Origin: a virus
Strand: one strand, 5' to 3'
DNA: 63,208 bases
IMG/VR virus record: IMGVR_UViG_3300016457_001358
Coordinates: 1 to 63,208 of that record
A program made the translations under genes and the position numbers. How positions within the stretch are numbered: the first letter of the stretch is position 1; each line of letters begins with the position of its first letter. Below, one piece after another: positions 10,889-37,140 of the stretch. The notes beneath the pieces were generated by a model that was given only the letters and a program-made list of their open reading frames with translations, did no database searches and was not told where the DNA came from.

Positions 10889-11338
10889 TCACATTATGAC
10901 AAGCCATCCTTTGTATTTTTTATTATTCGGTTCGTATACGGCATCGCTTTGGGGTTCGACCAAATAGAATTTGCGTTCATTTGAGATAAAGCAATTCAGC
11001 GCATGAGAATAGTTCTTTCCCGTAATCCAAATGATTCCGAACGCAAGATCGGCGTTCCAGTCCTGTATGTACCCCATCAGCCTGTATGAAAAATTATCGC
11101 AATCGAATCTCTCCGCCTTGTACTTCATTTCGTCGGTTTTGTCCTGCGCCAAAAACTCTTTCAATTTGCCGACCGATATCAGTTTGTATTTTTGGTCGCT
11201 CAAATAGATTTTTGCTCTAGGGAAAACTCTGGACACTATATCATACACTTCATTGTGGCTTATCTCCGAATACTCTTTCGTTTGCCTTCGTTTTCCGAAG
11301 AGCAATTCGACTACGAATTCCAGTATTTTTTTGAGCAT
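10889..11338 (-). CDS. hypothetical protein (last gene of structural operon)
   Basis: 149 aa ORF. Confidence 0.4.
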   Translation of the reverse strand: MLKKILEFVVELLFGKRRQTKEYSEISHNEVYDIVSRVFPRAKIYLSDQKYKLISVGKLKEFLAQDKTDEMKYKAERFDCDNFSYRLMGYIQDWNADLAFGIIWITGKNYSHALNCFISNERKFYLVEPQSDAVYEPNNKKYKGWLVIM

Positions 11339-11607: not shown

Positions 11608-13449
11608 TTAATGCGTATGACCAGCATCTACCGGGCTATGCTGATGACTTGCGGCATTGCCTTCGAGGGCTGGCGATACTTCCGACTCTGATGGGCTATG
11701 CTGATGACTTGCGGCATTGCCTTCGAGATTTGGCGCATTCGGAGTAGCAGACACATTAGCACTAGCATCTTCAGCTGTATTTGTATCAATATCGTGTGTA
11801 TGTCCCGTACTCCACCATGTTTTCAGATGATAGTTAAAGTCAGCGGTTCCTGTTCCGGTATATCTACATCTTAAATACAAAGTTTCTCCTTCGCTAGGTT
11901 TCATTGAAGATATTTCTTTCCAAATTGCTGTTGTACCCATATTGTCAAGGAATATCTTTCTAGTACCCAGTCCATAAGAGTAACTTTCAAGCTTGTATTC
12001 AAAATATTCAGGAGATGGGCATGAAGTAATAACAATCTCTACTTCGTGTACCAGTATTGTACTTCTTCTTTTTTGGTTTTCAGAATAACCGGATGTATCA
12101 ACAGTATAGCTCGCGATATCTGTCCAGTCACTTCCTAAACCTGAATATGATCCATCTGATGTGTGGTTAGTGTCAGTCATCCATGAATCTCCTTTTATAT
12201 TTGTCGTCGTTGCTGATACTGTATGGCTATGGGTAGATGTATAGGATGAATGATCGTGACTTGCGGCATTGCCTTCGAGGGCTGGTGATACTTCCGACTC
12301 TGATGGGCTATGCTGATGACTTGCGGCATTGCCTTCGAGGGCTGGCGCTATATCTGATTCCGATACATCGGCAGTCCCGGTGTCGGTTCCGTGTTTGTAG
12401 CTTCCCAAATCCTGTAACTGCTCCTCGTTTCTCGCCAACTTGTCCAAGAATGTCGTTACTCTGTTCGATAGCTCCAGCTCCAGCCTGTTGGGTTTGGTCG
12501 CGTTCAAAATCACCCTCTTTTTGACTATTTTATATTCACCCGACATGCCGCTTCTCGTATCGTTGACCGTCACATCGTCGCCGACCGAAAATGTATAATC
12601 CGTTTCGACCGGCAATATGGAGATTCTGTAAAAAGGCTTTGGCGTGCCGTCCGGATATGTTCCCTCGTATCCGCTGTAAGTATCCAAAATCTGGTCGGCG
12701 AGCCTTTGGGCCGATGTCACATCGGCGATCGTCCTGTCTATGAATATCGCTTCCTTGGTGATCCCGTAATAACTTTGCGAATCGGTATTCTCTCTCCAGC
12801 CGGAATCGATTTGCTGCGTTCCGTCGCCCATGCCCAGCACCTTCACCTTGTTTATCAATGCTTCTCTATCCACCATTTTTTTGATATCCCAGCAGTTTGC
12901 AAGGCTGCCTCCCGTGTTGAATGTGGCTTGAGACGTGTCGTTTCCCACTCTTTCGGCTATATTGAACTGGTCGTTGTCGCTGGCGTCTTGATTCACTTTC
13001 CATTCGTAACCTATTTGCCTCGCCAGCTTAGCCAGTCCCAGCAACCTGGATTCATGGACGCTGAAATCGACATTCCCGTAGTTCGTGTTCGTTCCGACAT
13101 TGATTACTCCGCTGCACAGATCGGATACTATGGTGCTCGTTGCCGTGGCGGACCACGATCCATCGTAGGTTTTTTCGAGCAATTTGACGCTCATATCGTA
13201 GCCGTAGCATTTGACGATGCCGGTATCGCTGTACTGGGGCTTCTCCAGCCTGCCTTTGAACACGGTCGTCGAATTGAGCTGAAATTTAACTATATTGCCC
13301 GCTTGAACATTTGGATCGTCGTGATCTATGTCAAACAGTTCCAGCTCAAATGTGAAAGGTTCGTTGAGCTTCTCCGTGAACTCGGCTTTCAAGTAGTTAT
13401 CCGAATAGTCAACGCCGTTTATCAACAATGTCCATGTCAATTTGATCAC
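11608..13449 (-). CDS. tail/baseplate-associated protein with internal peptide repeats
   Basis: 613 aa downstream of tape-measure-like gene; four copies of PALEGNAASHQHSP from 60-nt tandem repeats. Confidence 0.5.
   Translation of the reverse strand: MIKLTWTLLINGVDYSDNYLKAEFTEKLNEPFTFELELFDIDHDDPNVQAGNIVKFQLNSTTVFKGRLEKPQYSDTGIVKCYGYDMSVKLLEKTYDGSWSATATSTIVSDLCSGVINVGTNTNYGNVDFSVHESRLLGLAKLARQIGYEWKVNQDASDNDQFNIAERVGNDTSQATFNTGGSLANCWDIKKMVDREALINKVKVLGMGDGTQQIDSGWRENTDSQSYYGITKEAIFIDRTIADVTSAQRLADQILDTYSGYEGTYPDGTPKPFYRISILPVETDYTFSVGDDVTVNDTRSGMSGEYKIVKKRVILNATKPNRLELELSNRVTTFLDKLARNEEQLQDLGSYKHGTDTGTADVSESDIAPALEGNAASHQHSPSESEVSPALEGNAASHDHSSYTSTHSHTVSATTTNIKGDSWMTDTNHTSDGSYSGLGSDWTDIASYTVDTSGYSENQKRRSTILVHEVEIVITSCPSPEYFEYKLESYSYGLGTRKIFLDNMGTTAIWKEISSMKPSEGETLYLRCRYTGTGTADFNYHLKTWWSTGHTHDIDTNTAEDASANVSATPNAPNLEGNAASHQHSPSESEVSPALEGNAASHQHSPVDAGHTH
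11633..11727. repeat. 60-nt tandem coding repeat, two units
   Basis: gggctatgctgatgacttgcggcattgccttcgag repeated. Confidence 0.8.
12250..12350. repeat. second pair of the same ~60-nt coding repeat
   Basis: gacttgcggcattgccttcgagggctgg occurs twice. Confidence 0.8.
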
Positions 13450-14093
13450 CTGTGCGATGCCTCGATTAGACTAAGCATAACCCCGATCGTTTTCGGTCTC
13501 GTCGCTTCGTATGTCATGTTGAATTTGTTCATTTGAACGGTGTGCGTTGATTCCAAAGCGCTCCCCAATCCTTTATTAAATTTGAAAGTGATGTCTCCCC
13601 CCTTTTCCATAAATCTGCCCAGAATGTTTGCCTGATTGACCGCAGATTTATCATAGTTGTATGATATGGTGCAGTCCTTTTCGGCATACGCCGAATCGAG
13701 TATCTTCAGCCTCCCATTTGCGTAATCAATGCTGTAGTCGGTGTCTTTGACCAATGTAGTGTCCCCGTATTTGATCGTCACATTGCTCAAACCGGTGGCC
13801 GGCAATGGCGCCCATTCATTTAATCTTCCCGTTTTGAACGATTCGTCGCTGACCACTCCGTCGCTGGTCAGTTGCTTCACGATCGCCGCTATTTCCCATG
13901 TTACCGTGATTTTTAGCATATCGAGAGCGGACACTTTGTTTCCCCTGTTCCAATGGTTTTTTGATCTGGGCTCGTGAATGAATGTGATTTTTTTGTCATA
14001 CGTCTTTTTCACTCGCTGGACTTTCAAATATATCTCGTTTCCGCCTGCTACTCCCGTTTTCGACAAAGTCGCTATTTGCGCCATAAAAATCAC
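13446..14093 (-). CDS. putative distal tail protein
   Basis: 215 aa immediately after tape-measure-like gene; position only. Confidence 0.35.
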   Translation of the reverse strand: MIFMAQIATLSKTGVAGGNEIYLKVQRVKKTYDKKITFIHEPRSKNHWNRGNKVSALDMLKITVTWEIAAIVKQLTSDGVVSDESFKTGRLNEWAPLPATGLSNVTIKYGDTTLVKDTDYSIDYANGRLKILDSAYAEKDCTISYNYDKSAVNQANILGRFMEKGGDITFKFNKGLGSALESTHTVQMNKFNMTYEATRPKTIGVMLSLIEASHR

Positions 14094-16929: not shown

Positions 16930-17424
16930 TTATCTACCAAACGATTCTCTCGTCGTTCTAATAACATCGCAGTTTTGAAGCTCTGACCTGATTTTTTTTC
17001 TTGCGTTATTCAACGGTCTCCTCATCCAAGGGTGAGGTTTGACCTCGATTAGCGGGGGAATTTTGCGCGTATCATCCCATTTGGCAATTATCCACTCCAT
17101 CAGTTCGGGATGGAGATACGGGCTTACCACATGCTTTGCCATGTGTTCCAAGTAATGACCATAAATTTTCATCGGTATCTGATAAACGGGGCGCCTGCCC
17201 TTCTTTATACATTGCGCCTTGATGCTCTCATACAATGCGCCCAAATGCCACAGTTCTCCTCCTTTGCTGGCTCTCAATGCTATTTCTTCTTTTAACGCGT
17301 TTTCGTACAATTTGGCGACATTTTTCAGCGTAATGTCAAGCGATCTCGGAAGTTTGCTCATGTATCTGCCCAATTTATCTCGCAGTTCTATATCTCCTTT
17401 AATATCAGCTCGCATTGTTATCAT
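16930..17424 (-). CDS. hypothetical virion-module protein
   Basis: 164 aa ORF. Confidence 0.4.
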   Translation of the reverse strand: MITMRADIKGDIELRDKLGRYMSKLPRSLDITLKNVAKLYENALKEEIALRASKGGELWHLGALYESIKAQCIKKGRRPVYQIPMKIYGHYLEHMAKHVVSPYLHPELMEWIIAKWDDTRKIPPLIEVKPHPWMRRPLNNARKKIRSELQNCDVIRTTRESFGR

Positions 17425-17962: not shown

Positions 17963-18379
17963 TCACGGAAGTATTATCTCGCCCGCGCGGTTGAGCGTTC
18001 CTTTGCACTTTGAATAAGCATGCAAAGGAATTTGGCATTGCCAGCATCCGTCTTTTCCACACACCTCCGCATATTCGTTTTCATAGCTGGATTTCACTAT
18101 GTCATTTATGCTGACATTGTTCATGCTGGCATACGTTCGTATGTCCATCCAAGGCGCGTATGTTCTGCCGGATCTGCACTTGACCCCAATTTCGGTTCCG
18201 TTCGTGTCATAGTAGTATCCCGTTTTTCCGCTGCTCGAAAGCCTGTCGAAAAACCCAATTTCTTTCGTCAACGGGCATACGTAAGCTCTGTCAAGTTCCT
18301 GAACCTCGAGGTACTGCGTTCCGCCGAACCCTGCCAGCACCAGAGTTATTATCCCCAGCACTCCAAGTTTTTTATCCAT
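17963..18379 (-). CDS. secreted cysteine-containing protein
   Basis: N-terminal signal-like MDKKLGVLGIITLVLAGFGG; CWQC motif. Confidence 0.4.
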   Translation of the reverse strand: MDKKLGVLGIITLVLAGFGGTQYLEVQELDRAYVCPLTKEIGFFDRLSSSGKTGYYYDTNGTEIGVKCRSGRTYAPWMDIRTYASMNNVSINDIVKSSYENEYAEVCGKDGCWQCQIPLHAYSKCKGTLNRAGEIILP

Positions 18380-18389: not shown

Positions 18390-18560
18390 CTACATCTCCA
18401 ATTTTGCCCCGCAGGGGCAGTGCTTGTGGTAATACGAGTCGCCGTAACTTATCGTTCCGCTCATCTTGACTTTTGACAGGTCTCGCCCGCAAAACGGGCA
18501 CCTGTCGCCGAGCAACTCGAACCTTAAAAGGTAATAGATTTTCTTCATTTTCTCAAGCAT
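18390..18560 (-). CDS. small zinc-binding protein
   Basis: CPFCG...HKHCPCG. Confidence 0.3.
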   Translation of the reverse strand: MLEKMKKIYYLLRFELLGDRCPFCGRDLSKVKMSGTISYGDSYYHKHCPCGAKLEM

Positions 18561-18565: not shown

Positions 18566-20743
18566 TCAACCCAAAACAACCCAATCGGTTGAGTTGCATC
18601 CCAAAAATTGCTTTGATGATGAGTTGTAAACTATGATGCCTTCGTAAGACGATGAGCATGCTGGATATGACGAAGACGTGACATTCAGATAATAATCTGT
18701 ATTAAGATTCCCGCTCATTGTATCCCCGGTCTTCTTGACATAGTTTCCGCTCGCATCGTGGCTCGCCAAGCCGAGCAGATACTCTGCCCTGATTTCCTGC
18801 GCCGTCAGGCTTCGGTTGAATATTTTGACCTCGTCTATTGTGCCGTTGAAATAACTACTATATCCGTCCCATCCTATATGTAAGGGAGCATTATTTGCCT
18901 GAATTTGAAGATTTGGAACCGATATTGTGTTTTTCAAATCCGCATCTCGATAAAACCTGATTTCGTCATTACTATTATCTGCTACACCAACAAGATATAT
19001 CCACTGTCCAGTAGGGGTTGTTTCGTTGTCACCAACTACCCACCAGTTTCCATCTTGTTGTCGTATTTGGAATAATGCTCTACCAGGATATCCGCCCTTC
19101 AATTCCCCGTAGCCATCATTAGTCCACGAACCTTGTAATGAATAACTCTCTGAATTAGGAGATGCTCCGTTTAATTTTTTACACACAATCCCATCATTAT
19201 CGATGGCATCATTCAATTTTACCCATGCTGAAACCGTAATCCCATCAGTGATATCCAAACTCGCTGAATCGGGCACTCTCACATAATCATCCACTCCATC
19301 AAAACTCAAAGCGGTTCCAAACCGCCCAGAAACCCATTGTGGCGGGGTGTTTCCGTCGGCGTTGGTCGAGTTGGCGTCGTAAAGTGTGCCGTCGTTTCCC
19401 TCTCTTGAACTGTCGTAAGCGGTTGTTCCTGTATTTTCGTCAAACGCCCAGTAACCGACCAGACCCTCGCCGTTTGATTGAAGGGTGTTGTTGAAGCCGA
19501 GAATGGCGGAATCGAATGTCCAACTGCCCGTGATGGTCTCGCTCGCCGACTTGTCAACCAAATTTGTGGCGGCAATGCCGTCGACGGTTGACGATGAATC
19601 TAAGGTGAGGGTGTCGGCCACCTCGTCATCGGTCCAGTCAAACCCCAATGTTCCGGTGTTTGCCAGCGCTCCTTTGTCGACGGATGAACTTGAGTTAAGG
19701 GTTAAGGCGTCGGGAATGTCATCATCGGCGAGTGCCGAGCATTGAAGCGTGTCATTTACGCCTGTTACGAAATAGTGTGCGGAACAATATGCAGGGTAAT
19801 TTGTTAGTGCCGTGAAATCTACCGAACCTGTGTTATCTATAGTGAGACTATTGGAGATGTTGCCATCGTTGATCGGGTTCGTCATGTAAATATAATCTAT
19901 CCAGGCGCTGTTTATGTTCGTGAAGTTCGAATCCGACCAATCAAACACCGAGTTGGCAACTGCCGTGTCGCCGTCCACATCTATAAATGTATTCACATCT
20001 CCCTCGACATCCGACTTATCCACATCTCCCGTAAGTTTCGTTGCGCTTATCAAATTGGCTCCTGTTATATTATAATCATTCATATTCAGATTTCCGCTCA
20101 TCGTATCTCCAGAGACATCCACATAGTTATCATCCAAGAGAGCGGTCAGGTCCGACTCGGAATCAAAATATTGATCGTCCAGCGCATTGTCATCTATAAT
20201 AATATTGTTATAGGTTCCGGAAACCTCTCCGCCAAATGACGTGCCGGCGTCGAGAACCTTGTTTCCGTTTTGGTAAACATTCGTCGCATTGAGGTCCGTT
20301 ATGTTGATCAGGTTTGACAAAGCCCAGTTGAAAAGGGAGCCTGCCGAGACTGTGTCGCCGCCTTCGTCTATGAACTTATCGTTCAGGTTTGTCCCGTCGT
20401 CGTAAAAGTTCGATGCGTTGATGTTCTCCGCCACAATATCGTATCCCGTTCCGTCAAGGTTGGTTTCAAGATTTGTGGCATACAAATTGGTTGTATGAAC
20501 ATTGGTTGTGTTTACATTTGTTACATTAAAAACGTCTCTTTGCAACATGTTCAGAGAATCATTCAGGCTCATATTACCGTAAACGGTAAAACCATCCGAA
20601 TCGGTTATGTTTAGAATATTTTTGATGCCGTACCAGTTTTGTAAATCGATATCGGCCCCCGGTCTGAAATCGGTCAGAGCGTAAACTATGCTGCTCAAAG
20701 CCCACATTCCCAATAAAATAGTAAGTAGTTTTTTCACATCCAT
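18566..20743 (-). CDS. secreted LamG/ConA-like domain protein (fibre or surface adhesin)
   Basis: Signal peptide MDVKKLLTILLGMWALSSIVYA; Asn/Thr-rich repeats; LamG-type FDGVDDYVRVPDSASLDITDGITVSAWVKL and LTAQEIRAEY; many N-x-S/T sequons. Confidence 0.6.
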   Translation of the reverse strand: MDVKKLLTILLGMWALSSIVYALTDFRPGADIDLQNWYGIKNILNITDSDGFTVYGNMSLNDSLNMLQRDVFNVTNVNTTNVHTTNLYATNLETNLDGTGYDIVAENINASNFYDDGTNLNDKFIDEGGDTVSAGSLFNWALSNLINITDLNATNVYQNGNKVLDAGTSFGGEVSGTYNNIIIDDNALDDQYFDSESDLTALLDDNYVDVSGDTMSGNLNMNDYNITGANLISATKLTGDVDKSDVEGDVNTFIDVDGDTAVANSVFDWSDSNFTNINSAWIDYIYMTNPINDGNISNSLTIDNTGSVDFTALTNYPAYCSAHYFVTGVNDTLQCSALADDDIPDALTLNSSSSVDKGALANTGTLGFDWTDDEVADTLTLDSSSTVDGIAATNLVDKSASETITGSWTFDSAILGFNNTLQSNGEGLVGYWAFDENTGTTAYDSSREGNDGTLYDANSTNADGNTPPQWVSGRFGTALSFDGVDDYVRVPDSASLDITDGITVSAWVKLNDAIDNDGIVCKKLNGASPNSESYSLQGSWTNDGYGELKGGYPGRALFQIRQQDGNWWVVGDNETTPTGQWIYLVGVADNSNDEIRFYRDADLKNTISVPNLQIQANNAPLHIGWDGYSSYFNGTIDEVKIFNRSLTAQEIRAEYLLGLASHDASGNYVKKTGDTMSGNLNTDYYLNVTSSSYPACSSSYEGIIVYNSSSKQFLGCNSTDWVVLG

Positions 20744-21129
20744 AGCATCACTTCCAAATCCGAATCGTCCGCCAGCTTGCCCAAAAATGTGATGGTTGTC
20801 GGGGGACCGTGCGACACGGTATAGTCCTTGTCCTCGAGCAAAACGACCCTGTCTTTTATGACCATTACCATGGTCGAAGCGTGCGAAGTGTTGTCGCAGG
20901 TAAGCACCCTGTTTGTATCTCCGTCGCTTCCCGAGCAATCCGCTCCGGTTTTGTTTTTAACCTTGTGTGGATAAATGCCCGCTCCGCCGGAAGAAAAATC
21001 CAGCTCATCGCTTCCGCCGGGATTGTGCCTGGCGCTGTGATTTTTCAAGTCCGCAACCAGGTCATTCCAGTCAGACGATAACACAAGATTGGTGCTGTCT
21101 TTCGTATCATCAAACGCCATAGAAAACAC
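20734..21129 (-). CDS. hypothetical protein
   Basis: 131 aa ORF. Confidence 0.35.
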   Translation of the reverse strand: MFSMAFDDTKDSTNLVLSSDWNDLVADLKNHSARHNPGGSDELDFSSGGAGIYPHKVKNKTGADCSGSDGDTNRVLTCDNTSHASTMVMVIKDRVVLLEDKDYTVSHGPPTTITFLGKLADDSDLEVMLWM

Positions 21130-21213: not shown

Positions 21214-21585
21214 TTACTTGATTCGTTGCCCCCTCACTTCGAAGTGCGACCAAGTGTCTCCCGGATTCACGCCTTTCTCTTTGATGATGTCAACTATTTT
21301 GTATTCCGATCCGTTATAAACGAACCGGTTGTTGAGCTTGACATAGTCGATGTTTGCGTCGCTGGGACTGACATACAAAATCGCATCCCCTACGCTCAGC
21401 ACCCCCTCTTTCACTTCATCGCTCTCCGCATTCATGATCAGAACCAGCCCGGTAACAGTATGGCTTGTCGTCGATTCGGTTGGATGACCGTAATCATCAA
21501 AGCTTATCGAAATGTCCTTTACGGTGATCGTTTCTCCATGCTCCTCCAATATGCTGTTAATATCTTCGTTTGCCATAGAGATCAA
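21214..21585 (-). CDS. putative head-tail connector protein
   Basis: 123 aa; position between capsid and tail genes. Confidence 0.35.
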   Translation of the reverse strand: MISMANEDINSILEEHGETITVKDISISFDDYGHPTESTTSHTVTGLVLIMNAESDEVKEGVLSVGDAILYVSPSDANIDYVKLNNRFVYNGSEYKIVDIIKEKGVNPGDTWSHFEVRGQRIK

Positions 21586-22250
21586 AACGGCTTCATTATA
21601 TCGGTCACGGGCTCGCCTTTAACCATTGTGAGCGGTTTGTTTCGTATTTGGTTCACTATCTCTTTGTATTTGTCGTAGAATATTTTGAATCCTTGGGACT
21701 GCTGAGTGATTTTCAGCTTTCCTATCGAGTATTTCTGTATTTTTTTGACATCGATCTTGGTGAAGGCGTACGCGGCAGCCAGATACGCATTGGCGAGAGC
21801 AAGCAGATTGTCCGGGGTGGCAATTCTCACGGGAGAGTACACGTAAGTTACATACAATTTCGTCCCCGCGGCGGGAGCGCTCGACAGCACGAACTTGCAA
21901 TCGTCGTCATCAATCGAACTGACCGTGGCCGTTGTTTCTGTGCCGTCGGGATCCACCAAATACACGATTATATCATCCGTACCGACATCGCTATCGTCAT
22001 CCAGATCGCCGAGATAGTGTCCCTTCCAATTCTGGCAGTAAAAAGTTGTATTCGATCCGTTTATCAGGTTGCGTCTGGTATTGTCGATGTATTTGACCCG
22101 CTCCCTGACCACTTTGATTTGAATATCGTGGTTCAATTGATAAGCCGCCATGCTGATCAAAGTGTTCAAATCATCATCGGAAATATTGCTGGTTGTGAGC
22201 CCCGAGACTGCTCTAACCTGAGAAACGCTACAATAGCTAATAATGATCAC
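21582..22250 (-). CDS. putative head-tail adaptor protein
   Basis: 222 aa; position only. Confidence 0.35.
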   Translation of the reverse strand: MIIISYCSVSQVRAVSGLTTSNISDDDLNTLISMAAYQLNHDIQIKVVRERVKYIDNTRRNLINGSNTTFYCQNWKGHYLGDLDDDSDVGTDDIIVYLVDPDGTETTATVSSIDDDDCKFVLSSAPAAGTKLYVTYVYSPVRIATPDNLLALANAYLAAAYAFTKIDVKKIQKYSIGKLKITQQSQGFKIFYDKYKEIVNQIRNKPLTMVKGEPVTDIMKPF

Positions 22251-22281: not shown

Positions 22282-22551
22282 TCACCAGAATGTTAACAGA
22301 TCCAGTTTGAGATACATCTTTTTTGACAGATTTTTTCGCCTCACAGCATTGTTATTGCACGCAGCCTCCCTTGAAAGCTCTTTGAAAAACGCCAACCCCG
22401 CTTGGATCGAAGCAACGAATACCGACACGCTTATTATCAATTTAATATCCAAACCACTCGAAACAACCGCTTCATAGCTCAACATCCCAGACAGCGTCGA
22501 AAAAAACGCCACTCCCGCGTTTCCAATCAATTTCAGCCAGTTGACGCACAT
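22282..22551 (-). CDS. small membrane protein
   Basis: 89 aa, two hydrophobic helices. Confidence 0.3.
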   Translation of the reverse strand: MCVNWLKLIGNAGVAFFSTLSGMLSYEAVVSSGLDIKLIISVSVFVASIQAGLAFFKELSREAACNNNAVRRKNLSKKMYLKLDLLTFW

Positions 22552-27267: not shown

Positions 27268-30200
27268 TCAAATGAGTTTGAGAATCTTTTGATACCGATA
27301 CACGGTGTTTTTTGACAGTCCAGTCGCCAGACTGATGCTTCTTCTGGATTCGTTTTTTGCCGTGAGCTCGATTATCTGCTTCAATATTTTGCCCGTAACC
27401 TTCACGGGCTGACCGGCTTTTTTGATTTTGTCGAAAAGCATGATCCACGTTTGAGGCCCGATGTGCGCGATGTGGAATGAATACTCGCCCGTCATATCGA
27501 TCAGCTTCTTTGGCGGTTTAACCAGCACTGGAGCTCCCTCTTTTTTCGCCATTTGCAAAGGCTTCAGGTTAACATCGCCCTTGTCCGATCTGAACTCTAT
27601 TCTTATTTTGTGATCGGTCACTTCGTGGATGGTGTACACGCCTCTGGAAATTATGATAAAGACCCCGGGATAGCGCGTTTTAGCCGTGCCGATCTTATGC
27701 GTGACCCCGTCGAAGAACAGCCAGTCCACCGGCTCCGTCAGCTTGATCGTTCCTCTGACATGCGAACTGTCGGCATAGTTCGATTCTTCCACCGTTGCGG
27801 GAGTGAACAGCGTTATCCCTTCGAGGCAACCCTTGAGTTTGCCTTTTTTGAACAATGCCAGCGCGTCATCGTAGGTCAAGACTTTGCAAGTTACTTCGTC
27901 GGGAACAAACAACCTGACATCCCGGTGCGTTTTTCGCCCTATGCTGTGCAGGTGGATGACATAAGGCATCCACAGATTGTTGTTCATGATTTTTTTGAAA
28001 TTTCTCTGCATTCTCTCCGGGAAGTCCCTGATTATTTTGACTTCTTTGGCTTCCTCCGGCTCTTTTTTCAACTCTTCGTGCTTCACCGCAACGCCGATCG
28101 CGGTGACTATGTCCTCGAGTTCGTCTATTGTCGAAGTTTCCTTTTTTTCCGTAATATGATTGACCCTTGGCTTGTGAATCGAGTACCACCTGCCTTTGTC
28201 CGATTCGTGCCTCCAAACCTCTTCGACCAAAATGCTCAGTATGGCTCCCTCTTCGTATTTTTCGGATGTGTTGAACGTTTTGCCGAGAACCAGCACCTTT
28301 TTTCCTTTGAAATCGGTTATCTTGTCGGGGTTGATGCCGGCGTCCTTTTCCCTCAGATAGACTCCCACGAGATAGTTGTAAAGATTCTTTTCCTTGGGAA
28401 TTCGGTCCAGTATCACCACATCTATATCGACGAGGTTGCGAAATTTCAGCCACGACTTATGCTCTCCGAAATGATACTTTGCCGACAGGTCTTTGATCAC
28501 GGCCCCTTCCGAGTAAGGCAGATTCTTTGCCCACTCTATCGCCTTTCTGACTTCATCGACCCCTTTCGCAAACTTTCTCTGAATGAGCAAGGTTCTGGGA
28601 CCGAAGTTCAATTTATTCAAATATTTGATGCGCTCGTGTAAGCTCAGGTTCGTGATATCATTATCGAAGTAAACGATGTCCCATATAAATATCTTAATGT
28701 TTTTGTCGTCCACCTTTTTTCCGCTTTCGATCGCTCCTATGAATTTCATCAATGTGTTTCTTCCGAGCTGCTTGCCGTCGTCGAAAGGAACTATCTCGCC
28801 GTCCACTATGAAATTAGCATCGCTCATCTTCGATATCGCATCGCACAGAGTCGGAAACGCAAACGTCAGCTCTTTTTTTTGCTCTGAAAATATCTTCACT
28901 TCGCTTCCCTTTTTGTGGCAGCACACGTGAAATCCGTTTATCTTTTTCTCTACGGAGTATTCGATATCATTCCTGATCTTTGCCATTATGTCATCGATTT
29001 TGTAATAAGCCGAGCCCAGCGGTTTTTGAGGAAGATAAGGCTCGAACAGCCGAACCGAATCTCCGAGAATTATTTCGTTCATTTCCACTATTTTGGTCGG
29101 TTTGATGCGCTCCAGTTTCAAATCGTAAAGCGGAATGAATGAGTCGTGGCTGCCCTCCGCATCTCCCCATATCATGTGAATCTTCGGTATCAACTCGGCG
29201 TAGCCGTTTTCTTCGAGCATTTTCAGCAGCCTGACTTCGATCGCCCTTCTTATATACGAGTTCTTCTCCGCTCGCAATCTGATTTGCAAGTCCACATCGT
29301 TCGGTATGTGACCCTTTGGTCTTTTCACGGTAGAACCGACCAGAGAAATGCAGTCCTTGACTATTTTGAAGTCCTTGAATGCGTCCAGAAAATCGAGATT
29401 CGTCAAATCAACTTTCTTGTGTATCATCTCCTTTTCTCCGGTTATTCGCTTATACAGATCCAATGACCATTTCTTGTAGGTTTCCGGGTGAAACTCAATG
29501 CCCCTTTTCTTGAGCTCCTCGTATATCATTTTGGCGAGATTGACGAGAGTTTCTTCCGAATACGGTGTTTTCTCTCCTCTTTTCAGCTTGCTGTAATGGG
29601 CGCACACCAGTCTGTAATCGTCCTTCAAAACATCCGTGCTCAACTTTTTGGGATCATACGTCTCCGGGTTCTGTATCAAATTCGCTTCGACGTTCTGGAA
29701 CTCAAATTTTTCCAACACGCTTTCGATTTTTTCGGCGAGCGAATCCCACCAGCTTTCCCAACCTTTCTCGCCGTACCACACTTTGCCCGCAACGACCACT
29801 CTTGGTCTGTTCTCGGCGCCGATGTCGCATTTGGAATACAAGCCGTCCTGCTTGTCCAGCTCTTTGCTGATATCTTCGGCTTTGTCATCGTCGGCCGGGT
29901 TCGCCATCCTGAACACTATGAAGGCGACCCTCTCGGGCGACTTTCCCTCGTCGCTCGCCCTTATCTCTATCTCCTTGATCCCGTTCAGTTGCTCGAGCCA
30001 CTCGTCCTTTATATGAACATCGATATCGTTGAAACCGTTCCACGACTTCTTCGGACCGTCCGTGCGGCCGCTCAACCAGCCTCCCGGCGGCAATTTGTTG
30101 TATACCGCGTAGTATGCGAATGTGGGCGAATTCATTTTCGGCGTGTAATCCGCATTCAAAAATTCGATATCCTTCACGAATGTTTGCGTGCCTTTTTTAA

Positions 30201-32106
30201 ACTTCCACCTTCGCGGAGCTGAAAACTTCGTGATCCATTCAAACGAGAATTCGTAAAAATGCTTTTTGTCTTTCCATCCCCATTTTTCAATCTCGCTCTC
30301 GCTGATCAAATGAAGATTCGCCCTCTCGTCGAACTGCTTTTTCGTGATTTTGTTTGGCGCATGAAGCCTGATAACGCCGTAAACAAACTCTTTGTCCACG
30401 ACATAAAGAGCTTTGTCCACCATCTCGGGATAAGGTCTCGTCTTTATTATCAGCGATTTTTTTCCGCCCCATAACCATCTGGCGTGAGGCGACGGCAAAT
30501 AAATTCCCTCTCTCTGCTCGAACAGTTGCAACTCCACCAACTTCTGACTCGCGTCAATTGAATCGGGATCGTAGTTGCTGAATACCAGCTCGTATTCGGG
30601 CTTGTCGTTCTTGGCGAAGGTTCTTTTGTGGAGCATCTTTTTCATGTAAAAATCTTTGAACAAATCCCTTATCCAGTCGGCATCATTCAATGTTAAAAGA
30701 AACTTTCCCTTCACCGATTTCAAAATGTCGCGGAGCTCCCGCAGGTTTTCTTTCGTGAATTTCAAACCGTTTTTTTCGAACTTCCACTCGTCGGGATAAG
30801 GGGGATCGACAAAGAAAAACGTCTGCGAGGAGTCGAACCTCTTTATGATCGATTTGTAGTCCTGGTTGTATATCTTCACGCCCTTCAATCTGTTCCTCAG
30901 CGCGTCCCATCTGTTCAAAATCCCGAGCAACTTTTCTTTGTTGAACCAGCCGTATGTTTCTCTGTCTATTCCGTAAGAGTATCTCGTGAGATACAAAAAT
31001 TTGGCGAATCTCTCGGCATCGTTCTTCGGCTTCAATTCTTTGATCCTGAAAAAAGTCGGTTTGTCGTTTTTCCATGCGTATTGCCTGAGCCTTTGGGCAT
31101 CTTCGGCGCTCGTGCTTTGTATGAATTTGTACGCGAACGCGATCTCTGGATCGAGATCGTTTAAAACCTCGATTTCGCTCGGGCTCTTTCTCCAGAACAC
31201 CGCAGCTCCGCCGGCGAACGGCTCGCAGTAAATTTTGTGCTGTGGCATCATCTTGATCAATTTTTCCGCGACCCTGCTCTTGCCGCCCGGGCTGCCGAAC
31301 GCCTGTTGCATGAGTTCATGATCTTTGTATAGCACCATGCCGTCGTAAGACAAAATGATTTCGCTGCTCGATTTCCCCTTTATCTGGTTCCAGTATCGCC
31401 GAATCTGTTTTTCGGCCTCGTGATGGTCGGGATACGAGCGCCCCGCTTGTATCAGCACGAATTTGTCTGGATTGTATGCTTGAGCGTATGCCAGCGAATT
31501 GGCGACATTCAGATGCCCTCTCAACATCTTGCCCGTGGCAACTATCTCGCCTCCCCTTTCTTCCAAATTGTAAATGGCCGCATCCAGAATCATTATGTCC
31601 GCGTTTTTGAGATAGCGCTCGTTTTCTGCGGGGACCGATTCCATGTCCTCGGCATAAACCAAGCCGTCGATCCTGTACCCGTAGCAGGGAAATTTCTTGC
31701 CGGTCGGAAACGCCTCCGCGTGAATCACCCTGAAAGGAATTATCTTGAATCCCATTATTTCGTTCGTCTGGCGAGGAGTTATCGGTTTGAGAACGATGTT
31801 TTTGAACTTCTTTTGTAGCCTTTCGTTCGCCAGCACATCCGGGGGAGCGTAAACGTTTATGGGCTCGGTCAGCCACTTGTCCAGATCGGGCAGACCGCCA
31901 ATGCAGTCGGCGTGAGCGTGCGTCAGCAGGCAGAAGTCTATTTTCTCGATGCCGTTCTTCTCCGCTTGCTCCCTGAAGTGCTTGGTGACATCGATTATGA
32001 AGGATTTTCCGCCCTTTTCTACATAGATGGAGCTATTGGTGCGCCTGTTTTTTCCTCTTCCTTCAACTAACTGAGTCGGACCCGAGCCCAGCACAACTAT
32101 TTTCAT
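27268..32106 (-). CDS. giant multi-domain (polyvalent-type) virion-module protein: MBL-fold hydrolase + Dam-like N6-adenine MTase + ligase-like nucleotidyltransferase
   Basis: LLTHAHADCIGG; GGKSRVAEKL..YCEPFAGGAAVF..FFFVDPPYPDEW; EKKINGFHV..FIVDGEIV..SWLKFRN; likely start MKIVVLGSG at 32106. Confidence 0.75.
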   Translation of the reverse strand: MKIVVLGSGPTQLVEGRGKNRRTNSSIYVEKGGKSFIIDVTKHFREQAEKNGIEKIDFCLLTHAHADCIGGLPDLDKWLTEPINVYAPPDVLANERLQKKFKNIVLKPITPRQTNEIMGFKIIPFRVIHAEAFPTGKKFPCYGYRIDGLVYAEDMESVPAENERYLKNADIMILDAAIYNLEERGGEIVATGKMLRGHLNVANSLAYAQAYNPDKFVLIQAGRSYPDHHEAEKQIRRYWNQIKGKSSSEIILSYDGMVLYKDHELMQQAFGSPGGKSRVAEKLIKMMPQHKIYCEPFAGGAAVFWRKSPSEIEVLNDLDPEIAFAYKFIQSTSAEDAQRLRQYAWKNDKPTFFRIKELKPKNDAERFAKFLYLTRYSYGIDRETYGWFNKEKLLGILNRWDALRNRLKGVKIYNQDYKSIIKRFDSSQTFFFVDPPYPDEWKFEKNGLKFTKENLRELRDILKSVKGKFLLTLNDADWIRDLFKDFYMKKMLHKRTFAKNDKPEYELVFSNYDPDSIDASQKLVELQLFEQREGIYLPSPHARWLWGGKKSLIIKTRPYPEMVDKALYVVDKEFVYGVIRLHAPNKITKKQFDERANLHLISESEIEKWGWKDKKHFYEFSFEWITKFSAPRRWKFKKGTQTFVKDIEFLNADYTPKMNSPTFAYYAVYNKLPPGGWLSGRTDGPKKSWNGFNDIDVHIKDEWLEQLNGIKEIEIRASDEGKSPERVAFIVFRMANPADDDKAEDISKELDKQDGLYSKCDIGAENRPRVVVAGKVWYGEKGWESWWDSLAEKIESVLEKFEFQNVEANLIQNPETYDPKKLSTDVLKDDYRLVCAHYSKLKRGEKTPYSEETLVNLAKMIYEELKKRGIEFHPETYKKWSLDLYKRITGEKEMIHKKVDLTNLDFLDAFKDFKIVKDCISLVGSTVKRPKGHIPNDVDLQIRLRAEKNSYIRRAIEVRLLKMLEENGYAELIPKIHMIWGDAEGSHDSFIPLYDLKLERIKPTKIVEMNEIILGDSVRLFEPYLPQKPLGSAYYKIDDIMAKIRNDIEYSVEKKINGFHVCCHKKGSEVKIFSEQKKELTFAFPTLCDAISKMSDANFIVDGEIVPFDDGKQLGRNTLMKFIGAIESGKKVDDKNIKIFIWDIVYFDNDITNLSLHERIKYLNKLNFGPRTLLIQRKFAKGVDEVRKAIEWAKNLPYSEGAVIKDLSAKYHFGEHKSWLKFRNLVDIDVVILDRIPKEKNLYNYLVGVYLREKDAGINPDKITDFKGKKVLVLGKTFNTSEKYEEGAILSILVEEVWRHESDKGRWYSIHKPRVNHITEKKETSTIDELEDIVTAIGVAVKHEELKKEPEEAKEVKIIRDFPERMQRNFKKIMNNNLWMPYVIHLHSIGRKTHRDVRLFVPDEVTCKVLTYDDALALFKKGKLKGCLEGITLFTPATVEESNYADSSHVRGTIKLTEPVDWLFFDGVTHKIGTAKTRYPGVFIIISRGVYTIHEVTDHKIRIEFRSDKGDVNLKPLQMAKKEGAPVLVKPPKKLIDMTGEYSFHIAHIGPQTWIMLFDKIKKAGQPVKVTGKILKQIIELTAKNESRRSISLATGLSKNTVYRYQKILKLI

Positions 32107-33380
32107 TCGCGATCTCCATGAATTTTGGGCATGCCCTCTATCTCCCTGATGTAATCCTCGGTTTCCGGATTGGGAGTTATCAAACCATGCTTCGCGCATC
32201 TCGCTATTCTCTCCATCTTCGAATCGAGCTCCTCCAGAGAAATCTCCCCCCACTGTATTTTCACGGGCGGAACGCGGTTAACCTGGGAAATCCTTCTTAT
32301 CACTTTGGATTCGAGAACTCCCACCGTTCTCTCTATTATGTCCTTGAGCCTTATCTTGAAAATGTACTCCTGCCTGTTGAGAGTGGATCGGTTGGTCGTT
32401 TCTCCGAGCCCCGTCGCGAACGCTTTGGGTATGCCCATGCCGGTGATCATGACATCCATCCAGTAGTCGAGAAAGTTTCTTATTTTGGCGGACTGCCTCG
32501 ATTCCAGCAGACCGATCTTCAACCAGCTGGGATGGGAGAACGCGGTCAGGCTGTTGATGTCCTTCAGCTGCTCCGCAACCTTGGTTATCTGCTCCGGCGT
32601 GGCATCGTGAGTTTCGTCGCCCACCGACGCGTCGATCAGCGGAAAGCCGACCCTGTAGCTGGCGTTGGCGAAACCGTCCTCGACCGCCAGCTGCCTGAGA
32701 TACGACTTGTAAATCGGCTCGATCAATCCGATTCCGTAGAAGCCGTCCCCGACCTCGTACAGCTTGAAATGGGCGACCCTTTCCGGTGGCAGAAATATCT
32801 TGTTGCCCTGCAAAGAAACCTGGGGCGGGGGAGCGATTTTGTTGTTCACCCTTTCCATCGACGGAACCGACTGCGTGTATCCGACCGGGTTCCCGTAATC
32901 ATCCAGAGCGATTCTGTCCGAGCTGTCCTTCGCGTAGTCGAACCTTTTCGGATCTATGATGTCCAGATCGACTATCGCGCTCTTTTTCAAGCTCCCCTTC
33001 TCGATCGTGCCGTAGATTATCTCCCAAGGGCAGAACCCGTAGATGAACTGGTACTGAAATGTTTTTGTGAGAATGTTCCGCCAGTTCGTTTCTCCGCCCG
33101 TGTATCCGACATTGTCGAAAAACTCCGAAAAGTATTCGACGGCCTCTTTGCTGCCCTTCAAAGAGTACCCGGCGCTCATGATGATCTGGGTCAGCACGTT
33201 GATCGAGTTGTGTATTATTCCGTTTTTCGTGTAGCATTGCTCGAGCTCCTTCAGCTGGCCGGGAACCATCCTTTCCAATTCCGGCGTCGCTTTCTTGGCG
33301 ACGGGGACCGGCGAAATCTTCGAAACGGCCGAAGCCAGATTGAAGGACCTTCTGCCTCCGAACAAATCCGACAGCAGCAT
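32103..33380 (-). CDS. putative portal protein
   Basis: 425 aa immediately downstream of terminase large subunit; position and size only. Confidence 0.5.
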   Translation of the reverse strand: MLLSDLFGGRRSFNLASAVSKISPVPVAKKATPELERMVPGQLKELEQCYTKNGIIHNSINVLTQIIMSAGYSLKGSKEAVEYFSEFFDNVGYTGGETNWRNILTKTFQYQFIYGFCPWEIIYGTIEKGSLKKSAIVDLDIIDPKRFDYAKDSSDRIALDDYGNPVGYTQSVPSMERVNNKIAPPPQVSLQGNKIFLPPERVAHFKLYEVGDGFYGIGLIEPIYKSYLRQLAVEDGFANASYRVGFPLIDASVGDETHDATPEQITKVAEQLKDINSLTAFSHPSWLKIGLLESRQSAKIRNFLDYWMDVMITGMGIPKAFATGLGETTNRSTLNRQEYIFKIRLKDIIERTVGVLESKVIRRISQVNRVPPVKIQWGEISLEELDSKMERIARCAKHGLITPNPETEDYIREIEGMPKIHGDRE

Positions 33381-36894: not shown

Positions 36895-37140
36895 ATATTA
36901 TTATGCATTATGTATATAAAAAGATTATTGCCATTCTTTTATCATTATATAATATAAGCATCCAAAAATCTTAATTTGTTTCTCCAAAATATAAATTCTA
37001 ATCGCCAAATTGTAAAATATGAGATCAAATCGCTATTTATGATGGACCTGATTATAATCGCTATGATGCAACAAATATATTGATGAATATAATTGATGTA
37101 TGCTATTTTTACAATATATATAGAAACAATAAAAAGAGTG

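What the first reader, a model, noticed from the sequence alone, without database searches (positions are those of the whole stretch)
18566..20743. Secreted LamG-domain protein embedded in the tail module
The 725 aa protein has a signal peptide, Asn/Thr-rich repeats and a clear LamG-type segment (FDGVDDYVRVPDSASLDITDGITVSAWVKL). Many N-x-S/T sequons suggest N-glycosylation, as for archaeal surface proteins. It is a candidate receptor-binding fibre or a host-surface remodelling factor.
Basis: partly seen in the sequence, partly recalled or inferred. Interest (0 to 1): 0.45.

Follow-up and report, generated by a model that had tools for sequence, protein, structure and literature searches.

The report
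Signal-peptide LamG fibre in archaeal virus
A complete 63-kb head-tailed archaeal virus encodes, among its head-to-tail connector genes, a sugar-binding fibre protein that carries a classic export signal, which is odd because tailed-virus particles are built inside the cell.

Summary
A 725-aa gene lies on the minus strand (18566-20743). It has an N-terminal Sec-type signal peptide, an Asp/Asn/Ser/Thr-rich shaft with dispersed repeats, a confident LamG/ConA-like lectin domain (aa 425-660), and N-x-S/T sequons in modest excess.

The window is a complete archaeal head-tailed virus genome (TerL, portal, MCP, PCNA, PolD-small-subunit-like protein, 91-bp terminal repeat).

The gene is not in the distal tail cluster. 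It sits among the head-tail connector genes. Eleven divergent lineages keep the same design: a non-conserved hydrophobic leader, an Ala at the cleavage position, then a near-invariant mature motif, DFTPQGDINLR.

The fibre travels with two partners. One is a small N-terminally membrane-anchored, mostly Cys-rich protein (p138 here). The other is a small domain (p131) that is fused to the adaptor, and probably to the head-closure protein, in other viruses. Close relatives have swapped the LamG core between identical flanks.

Best reading: a Sec-exported, probably N-glycosylated, glycan-binding fibre that acts at the host envelope. Whether it ends up on the virion neck is unresolved. The LamG domain is ordinary. 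The conserved export signal on a connector-linked fibre is not.

The parts
20678..20743 (-). Signal peptide, aa 1-22: n-region MDVKK, h-region L6-V20, c-region V-Y-A. Predicted SPase I cleavage is after A22.
   Evidence: Hydropathy. AF2 models an isolated helix at aa 3-24 with pLDDT 85-88. The same design occurs in 11 lineages, with a non-conserved h-region and an Ala 0-4 residues before the conserved mature motif. The leader is 77% identical to P0002, against 93-97% for the adjacent mature part.
20594..20677 (-). Conserved mature N-terminal motif, aa 23-50 (LTDFRPGADIDLQNWYGIKNILNITD). The family consensus is DFTPQGDINLRxxYxIKNxxNIT. Inferred to be a docking or oligomerisation module. It contains a recurrent sequon.
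   Evidence: This is the most conserved part of the fibre across divergent viruses (alignment A7; A1).
19472..20593 (-). Shaft, aa 51-424. It is D/N/S/T-rich and carries dispersed repeats: NYVxxxGDTMSGNLN at 205 and 666, GDT..A.S.F.W at 129 and 258, and DD..D.LTL.SSS.VD at 340 and 372. A 44-aa module with a Cys pair (aa 301-345) is shared with P0057.
   Evidence: Repeat scores are 57-66 against a shuffle maximum of 43. AF2 as a monomer leaves the region unresolved (pLDDT below 50). A 65-aa stretch is 65% identical to P0077, a bona fide tail fibre with a Peptidase_S74 C-terminus.
18764..19471 (-). LamG / ConA-like lectin jelly-roll domain, aa 425-660.
   Evidence: Pfam PF13385, E 2.9e-25. AF2 pLDDT is mostly above 90. 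Foldseek: 5hon_A, the carbohydrate-binding domain 4 of AbnA, TM 0.80, and the lectin-like subdomains of clostridial neurotoxins. There are many viral LamG proteins in BFVD. PDB sequence hit 4qvs, an S-layer domain protein, E 2.6e-6. It is 41% identical over 236 aa to the secreted archaeal MAG protein P0025.
18566..18763 (-). C-terminal module, aa 661-725, plus the stop codon. It holds a second GDTMSGNLN motif and a small beta knob ending in YNSSSKQFLGCNSTDWVVLG.
   Evidence: AF2 models strands at 704-723 with pLDDT 77-85. The motif is shared with P0043 (YNTTDNEFYGCNSTNW). This module is only 35% identical to P0002, so it has been swapped.
20734..21120 (-). p131 (128 aa from its ATG). Its C-terminal domain carries the motif CSGSDGxxNRVLT. 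It is translationally coupled to the fibre gene. It has no signal peptide.
   Evidence: Homologous domains are fused to a head-tail adaptor in L007 (phrog_442, E 1.6e-10) and to an Hc1-like head-closure protein in L010 (phrog_161, E 0.0026, weak). The motif is present in every lineage that has enough flanking sequence.
18390..18560 (-). 56-aa ORF between the fibre and p138, with a CPFC...CPC pattern (zinc-ribbon-like).
   Evidence: Read directly from the sequence. A 56-aa gene is called at this position in L004. A 46-aa CxxC...CxxC protein lies in the same cluster in L007.
17963..18379 (-). p138: an N-terminal membrane anchor (MDKK + LGVLGIITLVLAGFGG) followed by a domain with six invariant Cys. 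It is the conserved partner of the fibre.
   Evidence: It is 51% identical (E 3e-52) to the protein just downstream of the fibre in L009, although the two fibres are only about 28% identical. Analogous N-terminally anchored proteins, mostly Cys-rich, follow the signal-bearing proteins in L007/L015, L019, L020, L021 and L010.
21214..22250 (-). Connector genes just upstream: an adaptor-like protein (21582-22250) and head-closure Hc1 (21214-21585).
   Evidence: SU10_adaptor, weak. phrog_161 Hc1, E 1.1e-5.
16930..17424 (-). Tail-completion / Neck1 protein, downstream boundary of the connector cluster.
   Evidence: phrog_5, E 7.8e-10.

Best explanation
The gene encodes a modular, glycan-binding fibre (adhesin) of a complete, roughly 63-kb archaeal head-tailed virus.

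SHOWN:
- It is a late-operon gene embedded among the head-tail connector genes.
- It carries a textbook Sec/SPase-I-type leader whose design, not its sequence, is conserved in 11 divergent lineages. The leader is followed directly by a near-invariant mature N-terminal motif.
- It ends in a confident LamG lectin domain. Close relatives have exchanged the core of that domain between identical flanks.
- It co-occurs with an N-terminally membrane-anchored, usually Cys-rich protein.

INFERRED MECHANISM:
- Late in infection the precursor is exported through the host Sec system, N-in and C-out.
- The leader is removed after Ala22.
- The shaft is N-glycosylated by the host oligosaccharyltransferase.
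- The fibre is held at the outer face of the membrane, possibly through p138.
- The LamG head binds glycans of the host envelope (S-layer, sheath or surface glycoproteins).

I commit to an envelope-directed role in the infected cell: receptor masking, protection of progeny from debris, or loosening of the envelope for egress. I do not think it is the tail-tip receptor binder.

My estimates: about 75-80% that it is exported, and about 45-50% that it stays off the virion.
For: Leader. The n/h/c anatomy is standard and this is the only hydrophobic segment in the protein. AF2 models it as an isolated helix. An Ala with a small or aliphatic residue at -3 lies 0-4 residues before DFTPQGDINLR in 11 of 11 lineages, while the h-region has no conserved residue. 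The leader diverges faster than the mature N-terminus among close relatives, 77% against 93-97% identity. Charges obey the positive-inside rule for an N-in, C-out topology (direct reading).

Sequons. N-x-S/T is in excess in the target (21 against 14.1, p about 0.03) and in almost every signal-bearing relative (p from 0.03 to below 0.0005). The mirror pattern S/T-x-N is mostly not enriched. The signal-less tail fibre P0077 shows no excess. Cytoplasmic structural proteins of the same virus have 0.2-1.5 sequons per 100 aa, against 2.9 here. A second signal-bearing protein (61624-63078) has 19 sequons against 4.6 expected.

Partner. An N-terminally anchored protein, with six Cys in five of the seven lineages checked, is conserved next to the signal-bearing protein(s).

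LamG. The domain is closest to LamG domains of secreted archaeal and CPR surface proteins and to carbohydrate-binding modules.

Precedent. Head-tailed viruses of sheathed archaea encode signal-peptide proteins that were proposed to be secreted and to act on the host envelope for egress (PMC11576556). The egress machinery of archaeal tailed viruses is otherwise unknown (PMC10791045).

The tail tip has its own Tal and a lectin.
Against: No signal-peptide predictor was available, and neither export nor cleavage has been shown.

The gene is interleaved with adaptor and head-closure genes, in different orders, in viruses whose MCPs are only 16-21% identical. It is translationally coupled to the preceding connector-type gene.

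Its conserved N-terminus with a mosaic distal part is the hallmark of virion fibres. It shares a shaft module with a genuine tail fibre.

Its neighbour p131 is a neck-associated domain by gene fusion.

All of this points to a virion neck fibre. Such a fibre would have to be cytoplasmic, or would have to be loaded onto the particle after lysis.

The sequon excess in the target itself is modest (1.5-fold).
Confidence: 0.45

Rival explanations
1. Exported, then loaded onto the virion. The fibre is exported and glycosylated as above. Its conserved mature N-terminus then docks onto the p131-type domain on the neck of cytoplasmically assembled particles once the membrane ruptures at lysis. This would give a glycosylated collar or whisker fibre used for first, reversible adhesion to host glycans.
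For: This reading reconciles the export evidence with the connector linkage.
- The fibre N-terminal motif and the p131 motif are the two near-invariant elements of the cassette, and they co-occur in all 5 lineages that have enough flank.
- p131-type domains are fused to the adaptor and, more weakly supported, to Hc1.
- There is translational coupling.
- The mosaicism is RBP-like.
- Capsid-borne glycan-binding modules that mediate reversible adhesion are documented for the archaeal virus HFTV1 (PMC12494034).
- Fibre-less T4 particles can be completed by adding fibres in vitro (my own knowledge).
Against: No tailed virus is known to add an extracytoplasmic component. The docking contact is inferred only from co-conservation, which is confounded by shared ancestry. 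The AF2 model of p131 failed, so no interface could be examined.
Confidence: 0.27
2. Conventional neck or head fibre assembled in the cytoplasm. The hydrophobic N-terminal helix is not a secretion signal. It is a structural anchor buried in the connector, as the hydrophobic N-terminus of reovirus sigma1 is in its turret. The sequons are a by-product of fibre composition.
For: Connector-cluster position and coupling. RBP-like mosaic architecture. A shaft module shared with a genuine tail fibre. All known Caudoviricetes assemble in the cytoplasm (established knowledge).
Against: A buried structural anchor should conserve its sequence. Here only hydrophobicity, the N-terminal K/R residues and the -3/-1 small residues are conserved, and the leader evolves faster than the neighbouring residues. 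The sequon excess is directional and is absent from the signal-less fibre P0077. The co-conserved partner is itself membrane-anchored.
Confidence: 0.2
3. Primary tail-tip receptor-binding fibre, which is the reader's 'tail module' reading.
For: The LamG lectin head and the fibre-like shaft.
Against: The gene is separated from TMP/Dit/Tal by the tail-completion, tube and chaperone genes. Tal (Prophage_tail) and a 149-aa Agglutinin_C lectin occupy the distal-tail positions. In relatives the gene lies before the tail-tube genes.
Confidence: 0.04
4. Host-derived surface adhesin carried as a moron (lysogenic conversion), unrelated to the virus life cycle.
For: The LamG domain is 41% identical to secreted archaeal MAG proteins.
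Against: Only the LamG domain is shared with cellular proteins. The N-terminal motif and the cassette are conserved, in the same slot, across very divergent viral contigs. The gene is coupled within the late operon. No integrase or lysogeny module was seen near it.
Confidence: 0.04

Closest known systems
LamG-like jelly-roll proteins of archaeal and bacterial tailed viruses (e.g. HHTV-1 R4TGC8, HVTV-1 L7TI36, cyanophage S-PM2 structural proteins)
   Same: A ConA/LamG lectin domain on a large viral protein. Foldseek E-values are 1e-15 to 1e-12.
   Different: I did not check whether those proteins have signal peptides. There is no sequence-level match in the phage collection (tblastn, no hit). 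The N-terminal DFTPQG motif and the cassette partners are specific to the group found here.
Virus-encoded SH-like (sheath-like) secreted proteins of head-tailed viruses of Methanothrix, Methanospirillum and ANME-1 (Medvedeva, Borrel, Gribaldo 2024, PMC11576556)
   Same: Proteins of archaeal head-tailed viruses that bear signal peptides and are proposed to be exported and to act on the host envelope.
   Different: SH-like proteins are 159-288 aa with an amyloid-like double beta-sheet core and usually no extra domain. This protein is 725 aa, fibre-like, LamG-tipped and mosaic, and it is linked to connector genes.
Neck appendages of bacterial phages: T4 fibritin whiskers, phi29 gp12 pre-neck appendages, collar proteins of phages Milano and Bas63
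   Same: Fibres encoded beside, and attached to, the head-tail connector. They assist adsorption (for the literature; details from my own knowledge).
   Different: None has a secretion signal. Fibritin is a coiled coil with a foldon, whereas no helices are predicted in aa 25-424 here. There is no sequence or fold match.
HFTV1 turret head protein with an N-terminal carbohydrate-binding module (PMC12494034)
   Same: An archaeal tailed virus that places a glycan-binding module away from the tail tip, for reversible first contact with the glycosylated host surface.
   Different: It is capsid-vertex located, has no reported signal peptide and has a different fold.
Exported receptor-blocking proteins encoded next to phage adsorption genes (T5 Llp, Cor of phi80/N15)
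   Same: Sec-exported phage proteins encoded inside the morphogenesis region. They act on the infected cell's surface to block the receptor (my own knowledge, not tested here).
   Different: They are small lipoproteins, not 725-aa mosaic fibres. They are bacterial and show no homology.
Secreted DUF2341 + LamG surface proteins of archaeal MAGs (P0022-P0049, e.g. P0025)
   Same: A Sec signal and a LamG domain 41% identical over 236 aa.
   Different: They lack the shaft, the DFTPQG motif and the viral context.

Membership tests
Laminin_G_3 / ConA-like lectin superfamily (PF13385) | HMM match above the curated gathering score | tested here: met
   89.6 bits against a cutoff of 27.6, E 2.9e-25, aa 482-651
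Laminin_G_3 / ConA-like lectin superfamily (PF13385) | Two-sheet jelly-roll beta-sandwich fold | tested here: met
   AF2 pLDDT is mostly above 90 over aa 425-660. Foldseek gives TM 0.80 to 5hon_A and 0.81 to a viral ConA-like protein.
Laminin_G_3 / ConA-like lectin superfamily (PF13385) | Carbohydrate or Ca2+ binding | not testable with these tools
   Would need glycan arrays or a structure with ligand.
Sec / signal peptidase I signal peptide | Positively charged n-region, uninterrupted hydrophobic h-region of about 10-20 aa, and small residues at -3 and -1 | tested here: met
   MDVKK / L6-V20 / V-Y-A. The pattern holds in 11 of 11 lineages. This was judged by inspection, because no dedicated predictor was available.
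Sec / signal peptidase I signal peptide | Actual export and cleavage | not testable with these tools
   Needs reporter fusions or N-terminal sequencing.
Archaeal class III (type IV pilin-like) signal peptide | [K/R]-[G/A] cleavage site immediately before the hydrophobic stretch | tested here: not met
   The residue before the h-region is K5 (KK|LL). There is no G/A in the target or in the 10 relatives.
Lipoprotein signal (lipobox) | A Cys at +1 after the h-region | tested here: not met
   There is no Cys in the first 300 residues of the target.
Phage tail fibre / receptor-binding protein | Encoded in the late morphogenetic operon | tested here: met
   It is co-directional with, and coupled to, the genes from TerL through to the lectin.
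Phage tail fibre / receptor-binding protein | Conserved N-terminal attachment part and mosaic distal binding part | tested here: met
   Against P0002, aa 23-300 are 93-97% identical, the LamG core 481-632 is 27%, the flank 633-668 is 100% and the C-terminus is 35%.
Phage tail fibre / receptor-binding protein | Homology to annotated tail fibres | tested here: inconclusive
   Only a 65-aa shaft module (65% identity) and a second short stretch are shared with P0077, which is a PHROG tail fibre with Peptidase_S74. The target's own PHROG hit is a family of unknown function.
Phage tail fibre / receptor-binding protein | Gene next to the distal tail / baseplate genes (Dit, Tal) | tested here: not met
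   It lies between Hc1 and the tail-completion protein. Dit and Tal are at 11608-14093.
Phage tail fibre / receptor-binding protein | Presence in the virion | not testable with these tools
   Needs virion proteomics or cryo-EM.
Neck fibre / whisker (fibritin-like) | Gene adjacent to connector genes | tested here: met
   plus the p131 domain fusions to the adaptor and to Hc1.
Neck fibre / whisker (fibritin-like) | Trimeric coiled-coil shaft with a C-terminal foldon | tested here: not met
   AF2/DSSP shows almost no helix in aa 25-424, and the C-terminus is a LamG domain plus a beta knob.
Viral SH-like sheath proteins (PMC11576556) | Signal peptide | tested here: met
   See above.
Viral SH-like sheath proteins (PMC11576556) | Length 159-288 aa with an amyloid-like core of two six-stranded sheets | tested here: not met
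   The protein is 725 aa. No such core appears in the AF2 model, although the shaft is unresolved.

The most novel reading that the evidence does not exclude
A broad group of archaeal head-tailed viruses finishes its virions outside the cytoplasm. Connector-linked fibres would be exported by Sec, N-glycosylated by the host and parked on a viral membrane-anchored Cys-rich protein. They would be loaded onto a dedicated neck domain (p131 type) only when the cell lyses. That would be the first extracytoplasmic assembly step, and the first host-glycosylated component, in Caudoviricetes.
Probability: 0.25. Interest if true: 0.85.

Novelty: new variant of a known kind. Interest (0 to 1): 0.55.

Why it matters
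Tailed viruses are thought to assemble entirely in the cytoplasm. How archaeal tailed viruses cross and leave the glycosylated archaeal envelope is an open question, and a 2024 review says the egress players are 'completely uncharacterized' (PMC10791045).

The finding is a three-part cassette kept next to the connector genes in many divergent uncultured archaeal viruses. It consists of a neck domain, one or more signal-peptide fibres, and a membrane-anchored Cys-rich protein. This gives concrete candidates to test by proteomics, glycoprotein staining and cryo-EM.

There are two possible outcomes:
- Infected cells display viral lectin fibres on their surface, for receptor masking or egress.
- Virions carry host-glycosylated fibres added after export.

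Either would extend what is known about virus-envelope interplay in archaea. The mature N-terminal motif DFTPQGDINLR may also serve as a search marker for this viral group.

Tried and rejected
1. Plus-strand reading of the given coordinates gives only stop-ridden frames. The gene is on the minus strand.
2. Halophile host. This was suggested by the acidic protein but rejected, because proteome pI values are mixed and many proteins are basic.
3. ANME-1 host. The samples are Guaymas/Pescadero-type sediments, but the relative's contig is not in the ANME-1 mobile-element tables that are held. The host stays unassigned.
4. CPR-bacterial host. A 49%-identical MCP lies on a contig binned as Ca. Paceibacterota. 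I judge this to be mis-binning, given the archaeal PCNA and the PolD-small-subunit-like protein.
5. PCNA homologue search for host clues returned only near-identical viral copies.
6. A profile of the fibre N-terminus against the 5.8-billion-protein set returned one hit. The IMG/VR pattern scan worked better.
7. My query for the representative-library search (aa 1-480) accidentally included the first LamG strands, so the hit list is dominated by multi-LamG proteins.
8. tblastn of the fibre against 50,697 phage records gave no match.
9. I suspected a pectate-lyase-like beta-helix in the extra modules of P0003 and P0043. Pfam, PHROGs and PDB sequence searches give no support, so I do not claim it.
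10. AF2 leaves the shaft unresolved as a monomer. AF2 of p131 without an alignment failed (pLDDT 34).
11. Pilin-type and lipoprotein signals were rejected by inspection.
12. Profile searches of p131 and p138 against PDB sequences gave nothing significant.
Full report
OBSERVATION. The stated coordinates hold a real gene, but on the minus strand. Its ATG is at 20743 and its stop at 18568-18566, giving 725 aa; the plus strand is full of stops.

The long start is the right one, for four reasons. It overlaps the TGA of the upstream gene by 10 nt. An SD-like AAGTGAT lies 4 nt upstream, a variant of the GGTGA motif that precedes most genes of the window. Met13, which database gene callers used for the identical protein P0001, has no such motif. 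Relatives P0002 and P0003 were called with the long start.

The quoted LamG segment is residues 481-510. Pfam Laminin_G_3 matches aa 482-651 at E 2.9e-25. The protein is rich in D, N, S and T. It carries dispersed motif repeats that score well above shuffles, not tandem repeats.

CONTEXT. The window is a complete viral genome. Its first 91 bases recur at its end.

The minus-strand block 35149-10889 is a siphovirus-type morphogenetic operon. In order it encodes:
- TerL, then portal;
- a 1661-aa protein fusing an MBL-fold hydrolase, a Dam methylase and an ATP-dependent ligase;
- a 401-aa protein, the MCP, and several small head proteins;
- an adaptor-like protein (21582-22250) and head closure Hc1 (21214-21585);
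- p131, THE FIBRE, a 56-aa Zn-ribbon-like ORF, p138 and p176;
- the tail-completion/Neck1 protein (16930-17424), a 188-aa probable tube protein and chaperones;
- TMP, a Dit-like protein, Tal (Prophage_tail) and a 149-aa Agglutinin_C lectin.

So the gene sits in the connector cluster, not in the distal tail cluster.

The virus is archaeal. Its PCNA is closest to Thermococcales PCNAs (E about 1e-23; archaeal sliding-clamp models). It has a protein related to the PolD small subunit. The MCP's only match among 50,697 phage records is an Altiarchaeum virus. A 49%-identical MCP on a contig binned as a CPR bacterium is most simply mis-binning. Relatives come from Guaymas-type hydrothermal sediment. 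The host is not assigned.

ANATOMY. AF2 with a 40-sequence alignment gives four regions:
- an isolated helix at aa 3-24 (pLDDT 85-88);
- an unresolved shaft at aa 53-423, as expected for a fibre modelled as a monomer;
- a confident jelly roll at aa 425-660;
- a small beta knob at aa 690-725.

The jelly roll matches carbohydrate-binding LamG-type modules: AbnA domain 4 (TM 0.80) and the lectin-like subdomains of clostridial neurotoxins. It also matches many viral LamG proteins, including those of haloarchaeal tailed viruses. At sequence level it is 41% identical over 236 aa to secreted DUF2341-LamG proteins of archaeal MAGs. The LamG domain itself is therefore ordinary.

THE LEADER. MDVKK-LLTILLGMWALSSIVYA-LTDF has the n/h/c anatomy of a Sec/SPase I signal. 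It is the only hydrophobic stretch in the protein.

The decisive evidence is comparative. Full-length relatives at 27-31% identity (P0057, P0043, P0097), a fragment (P0261) and six further IMG/VR lineages bring the total to eleven lineages, and all share the same design:
- K/R residues at the N-terminus;
- 12-20 hydrophobic residues with no conserved position;
- an Ala, with a small or aliphatic residue at -3, placed 0-4 residues before the mature motif;
- the near-invariant mature motif DFTPQGDINLRxxYxIKNxxNIT.

Even among close relatives the leader is less conserved (77%) than the adjacent mature segment (93-97%). This is how signal peptides evolve. It is not how buried structural anchors evolve. 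The charge distribution predicts an N-in, C-out topology. Pilin-type and lipoprotein signals are excluded by inspection.

SEQUONS. The target has 21 N-x-S/T against 14.1 +/- 3.2 expected (p about 0.03). Taken alone this is weak. The excess recurs, however, in nearly every signal-bearing relative, up to 3.7-fold with p below 0.0005. The mirror pattern S/T-x-N is mostly not enriched. The one relative without a leader, P0077, a genuine tail fibre with a Peptidase_S74 C-terminus, shows no excess. Cytoplasmic structural proteins of this virus are sequon-poor. A second signal-bearing protein (61624-63078) has 19 sequons against 4.6 expected. This directional bias fits selection for N-glycosylation, which in archaea takes place outside the membrane.

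THE CASSETTE. In viruses whose MCPs are only 16-21% identical to this one, the homologous fibre occupies the same slot. It lies after the head genes and before the tail-tube genes. It is often immediately downstream of, and overlapping, a gp6-like adaptor gene. Two partners travel with it.

(i) p138 (17963-18379) has an N-terminal membrane anchor and six invariant Cys. It is 51% identical to its counterpart in L009, although the two fibres are only about 28% identical. Analogous N-terminally anchored proteins, mostly small and Cys-rich, follow the signal-bearing protein(s) in L007/L015, L019, L020, L021 and L010.

(ii) p131 (20734-21120) carries the motif CSGSDGxxNRVLT. The same domain is fused to a head-tail adaptor in L007 (phrog_442, E 1.6e-10). 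It is fused, with weaker support, to an Hc1-like head-closure protein in L010 (phrog_161, E 0.0026). It is present in all five lineages that have enough flanking sequence. These fusions place the p131 domain on the neck.

MOSAICISM. Against P0002, which comes from an otherwise near-identical genome, identity varies sharply by region:
- aa 23-300: 93-97%
- LamG core 481-632: 27%
- flank 633-668: 100%
- C-terminal knob: 35%

There are also whole-module insertions and deletions, and P0003 carries an extra module of about 390 aa. A 65-aa shaft module is 65% identical to the tail fibre P0077. This is the pattern of host-recognition proteins.

MECHANISM. Two bodies of evidence pull in different directions.
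- Export is supported by the leader design, the directional sequon bias, the membrane-anchored Cys-rich partner, and the kinship of the LamG domain with secreted surface proteins.
- A virion (neck) location is suggested by the interleaving with connector genes, the translational coupling, the neck-domain partner, and the RBP-like mosaicism.

I estimate export at 75-80%.

Given export, the conservative reading is a fibre displayed at the outer face of the infected cell's membrane. Its LamG head would bind envelope glycans. Possible purposes are receptor masking, protection of progeny from debris, or loosening of the envelope for egress. There is a published precedent. Head-tailed viruses of sheathed archaea encode signal-peptide proteins that were proposed to be secreted and to weaken the sheath (PMC11576556). 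The egress machinery of archaeal tailed viruses is otherwise unknown (PMC10791045).

The more novel reading has about 25% probability. The exported, glycosylated fibre would dock through its invariant N-terminal motif onto the p131 neck domain when the cell lyses.

A conventional cytoplasmic neck fibre with a non-secretory hydrophobic anchor has about 20% probability. It explains the synteny but not the way the leader evolves or the sequon bias.

A primary tail-tip RBP is unlikely, because Tal and a lectin occupy that position.

COMPARISON AND NOVELTY. The LamG domain is a clear member of PF13385. The protein is not a member of the fibritin family, the SH-like family, the pilin family or the lipoprotein family, because defining features were tested and not met. 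It works like a phage adhesin fibre, but it carries an export signal, for which I found no precedent among tailed-virus fibres in the literature searched.

I rate it a new variant of a known kind. It would be categorically new only if exported fibres prove to be loaded onto virions.

CAVEATS. No signal-peptide predictor, multimer modelling or experimental data were available. The host is unknown. Co-occurrence of the cassette parts is partly confounded by shared ancestry. The sequon excess in the target itself is modest.

Noticed in passing
window 22282-22551 (-): An 89-aa protein with two hydrophobic segments and a basic C-terminus (…RRKNLSKKMYLK…), which is a holin-like architecture. It sits inside the head/connector gene block and is conserved as an 89-aa gene in relatives L001-L006. 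Holins have not been established for archaeal tailed viruses.
   Followed up: partly
window 27268-32253 (-): A 1661-aa protein between the portal and scaffold/MCP genes. It fuses an MBL-fold hydrolase (weak Anti-Pycsar Apyc1 hit in precomputed Pfam), a D12/Dam adenine methyltransferase and an ATP-dependent DNA ligase, plus about 900 aa of unassigned sequence. Its position suggests a head-packaged or ejected multi-enzyme protein. It is conserved as a 1612-aa gene in relatives.
   Followed up: partly
window 61624-63078 (+): A 484-aa protein with a signal-like N-terminus (MKVFLEATAFVLILLACCVVFADA), 12 Cys and 19 N-x-S/T sequons against 4.6 expected. It has no Pfam or NCBIfam hit. It is probably a second secreted glycoprotein of the virus.
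   Followed up: partly
window 10889-11338 (-): A 149-aa protein at the very end of the tail module with Agglutinin_C / ricin-type lectin C-terminal domain hits (E 1.6e-7). It is conserved in relatives. Together with Tal (11608-13449) it is the better candidate for the tail-tip receptor binder.
   Followed up: partly
window 1-91 and 63118-63208: The first 91 bases are repeated at the end of the window. This indicates a circularly closed or terminally redundant assembly, meaning a complete viral genome of about 63.1 kb.
   Followed up: yes
window 36000-37500: A sharp GC trough (22-29%, against about 45% elsewhere) at the point where transcription diverges. A-rich and T-rich short tandem repeats lie at 36124-36276 and 38005-38054. 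This is a candidate replication origin or regulatory region.
   Followed up: partly
window 42132-44562 (+): A cluster of amidoligase-like, class-II glutamine amidotransferase-like and ATP-grasp (RimK-like) genes, with a T4 Rnl1-type RNA ligase nearby (39700-40746). It may be a peptide-ligation or RNA-repair (counter-defence) module.
   Followed up: no
window 4158-5066 (+), 46374-47096 (+), 52168-53301 (+), 54491-54564 (+): A phosphoesterase related to the PolD small subunit with an N-terminal wHTH, an archaeal-type PCNA, an RNase HII with a 150-aa N-terminal extension, and a tRNA-Met. No DNA polymerase catalytic subunit was identified among the ORFs I scanned.
   Followed up: partly
L011 (JBAZJW010000003.1, 85-kb contig): A related virus (MCP 49% identical, same TerL-portal-scaffold-MCP order) sits on a contig binned into a 'Candidatus Paceibacterota' (CPR bacterium) MAG. 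This is probably a mis-binned archaeal virus, but it conflicts with the archaeal host signal.
   Followed up: partly
L019 5467-8189 and L020 3462-4582: In more distant viral contigs, one to three consecutive signal-bearing proteins of 197-368 aa are followed by a roughly 100-aa N-terminally anchored, six-Cys protein. The 197-272-aa proteins fall in the size range reported for viral SH-like sheath proteins. This was not tested structurally.
   Followed up: no
window 18390-18560 (-): A 56-aa ORF with a CPFC…CPC pattern (zinc-ribbon-like) fills the apparent gap between the fibre and p138. A 46-aa CxxC…CxxC ORF lies in the equivalent cluster of L007.
   Followed up: partly
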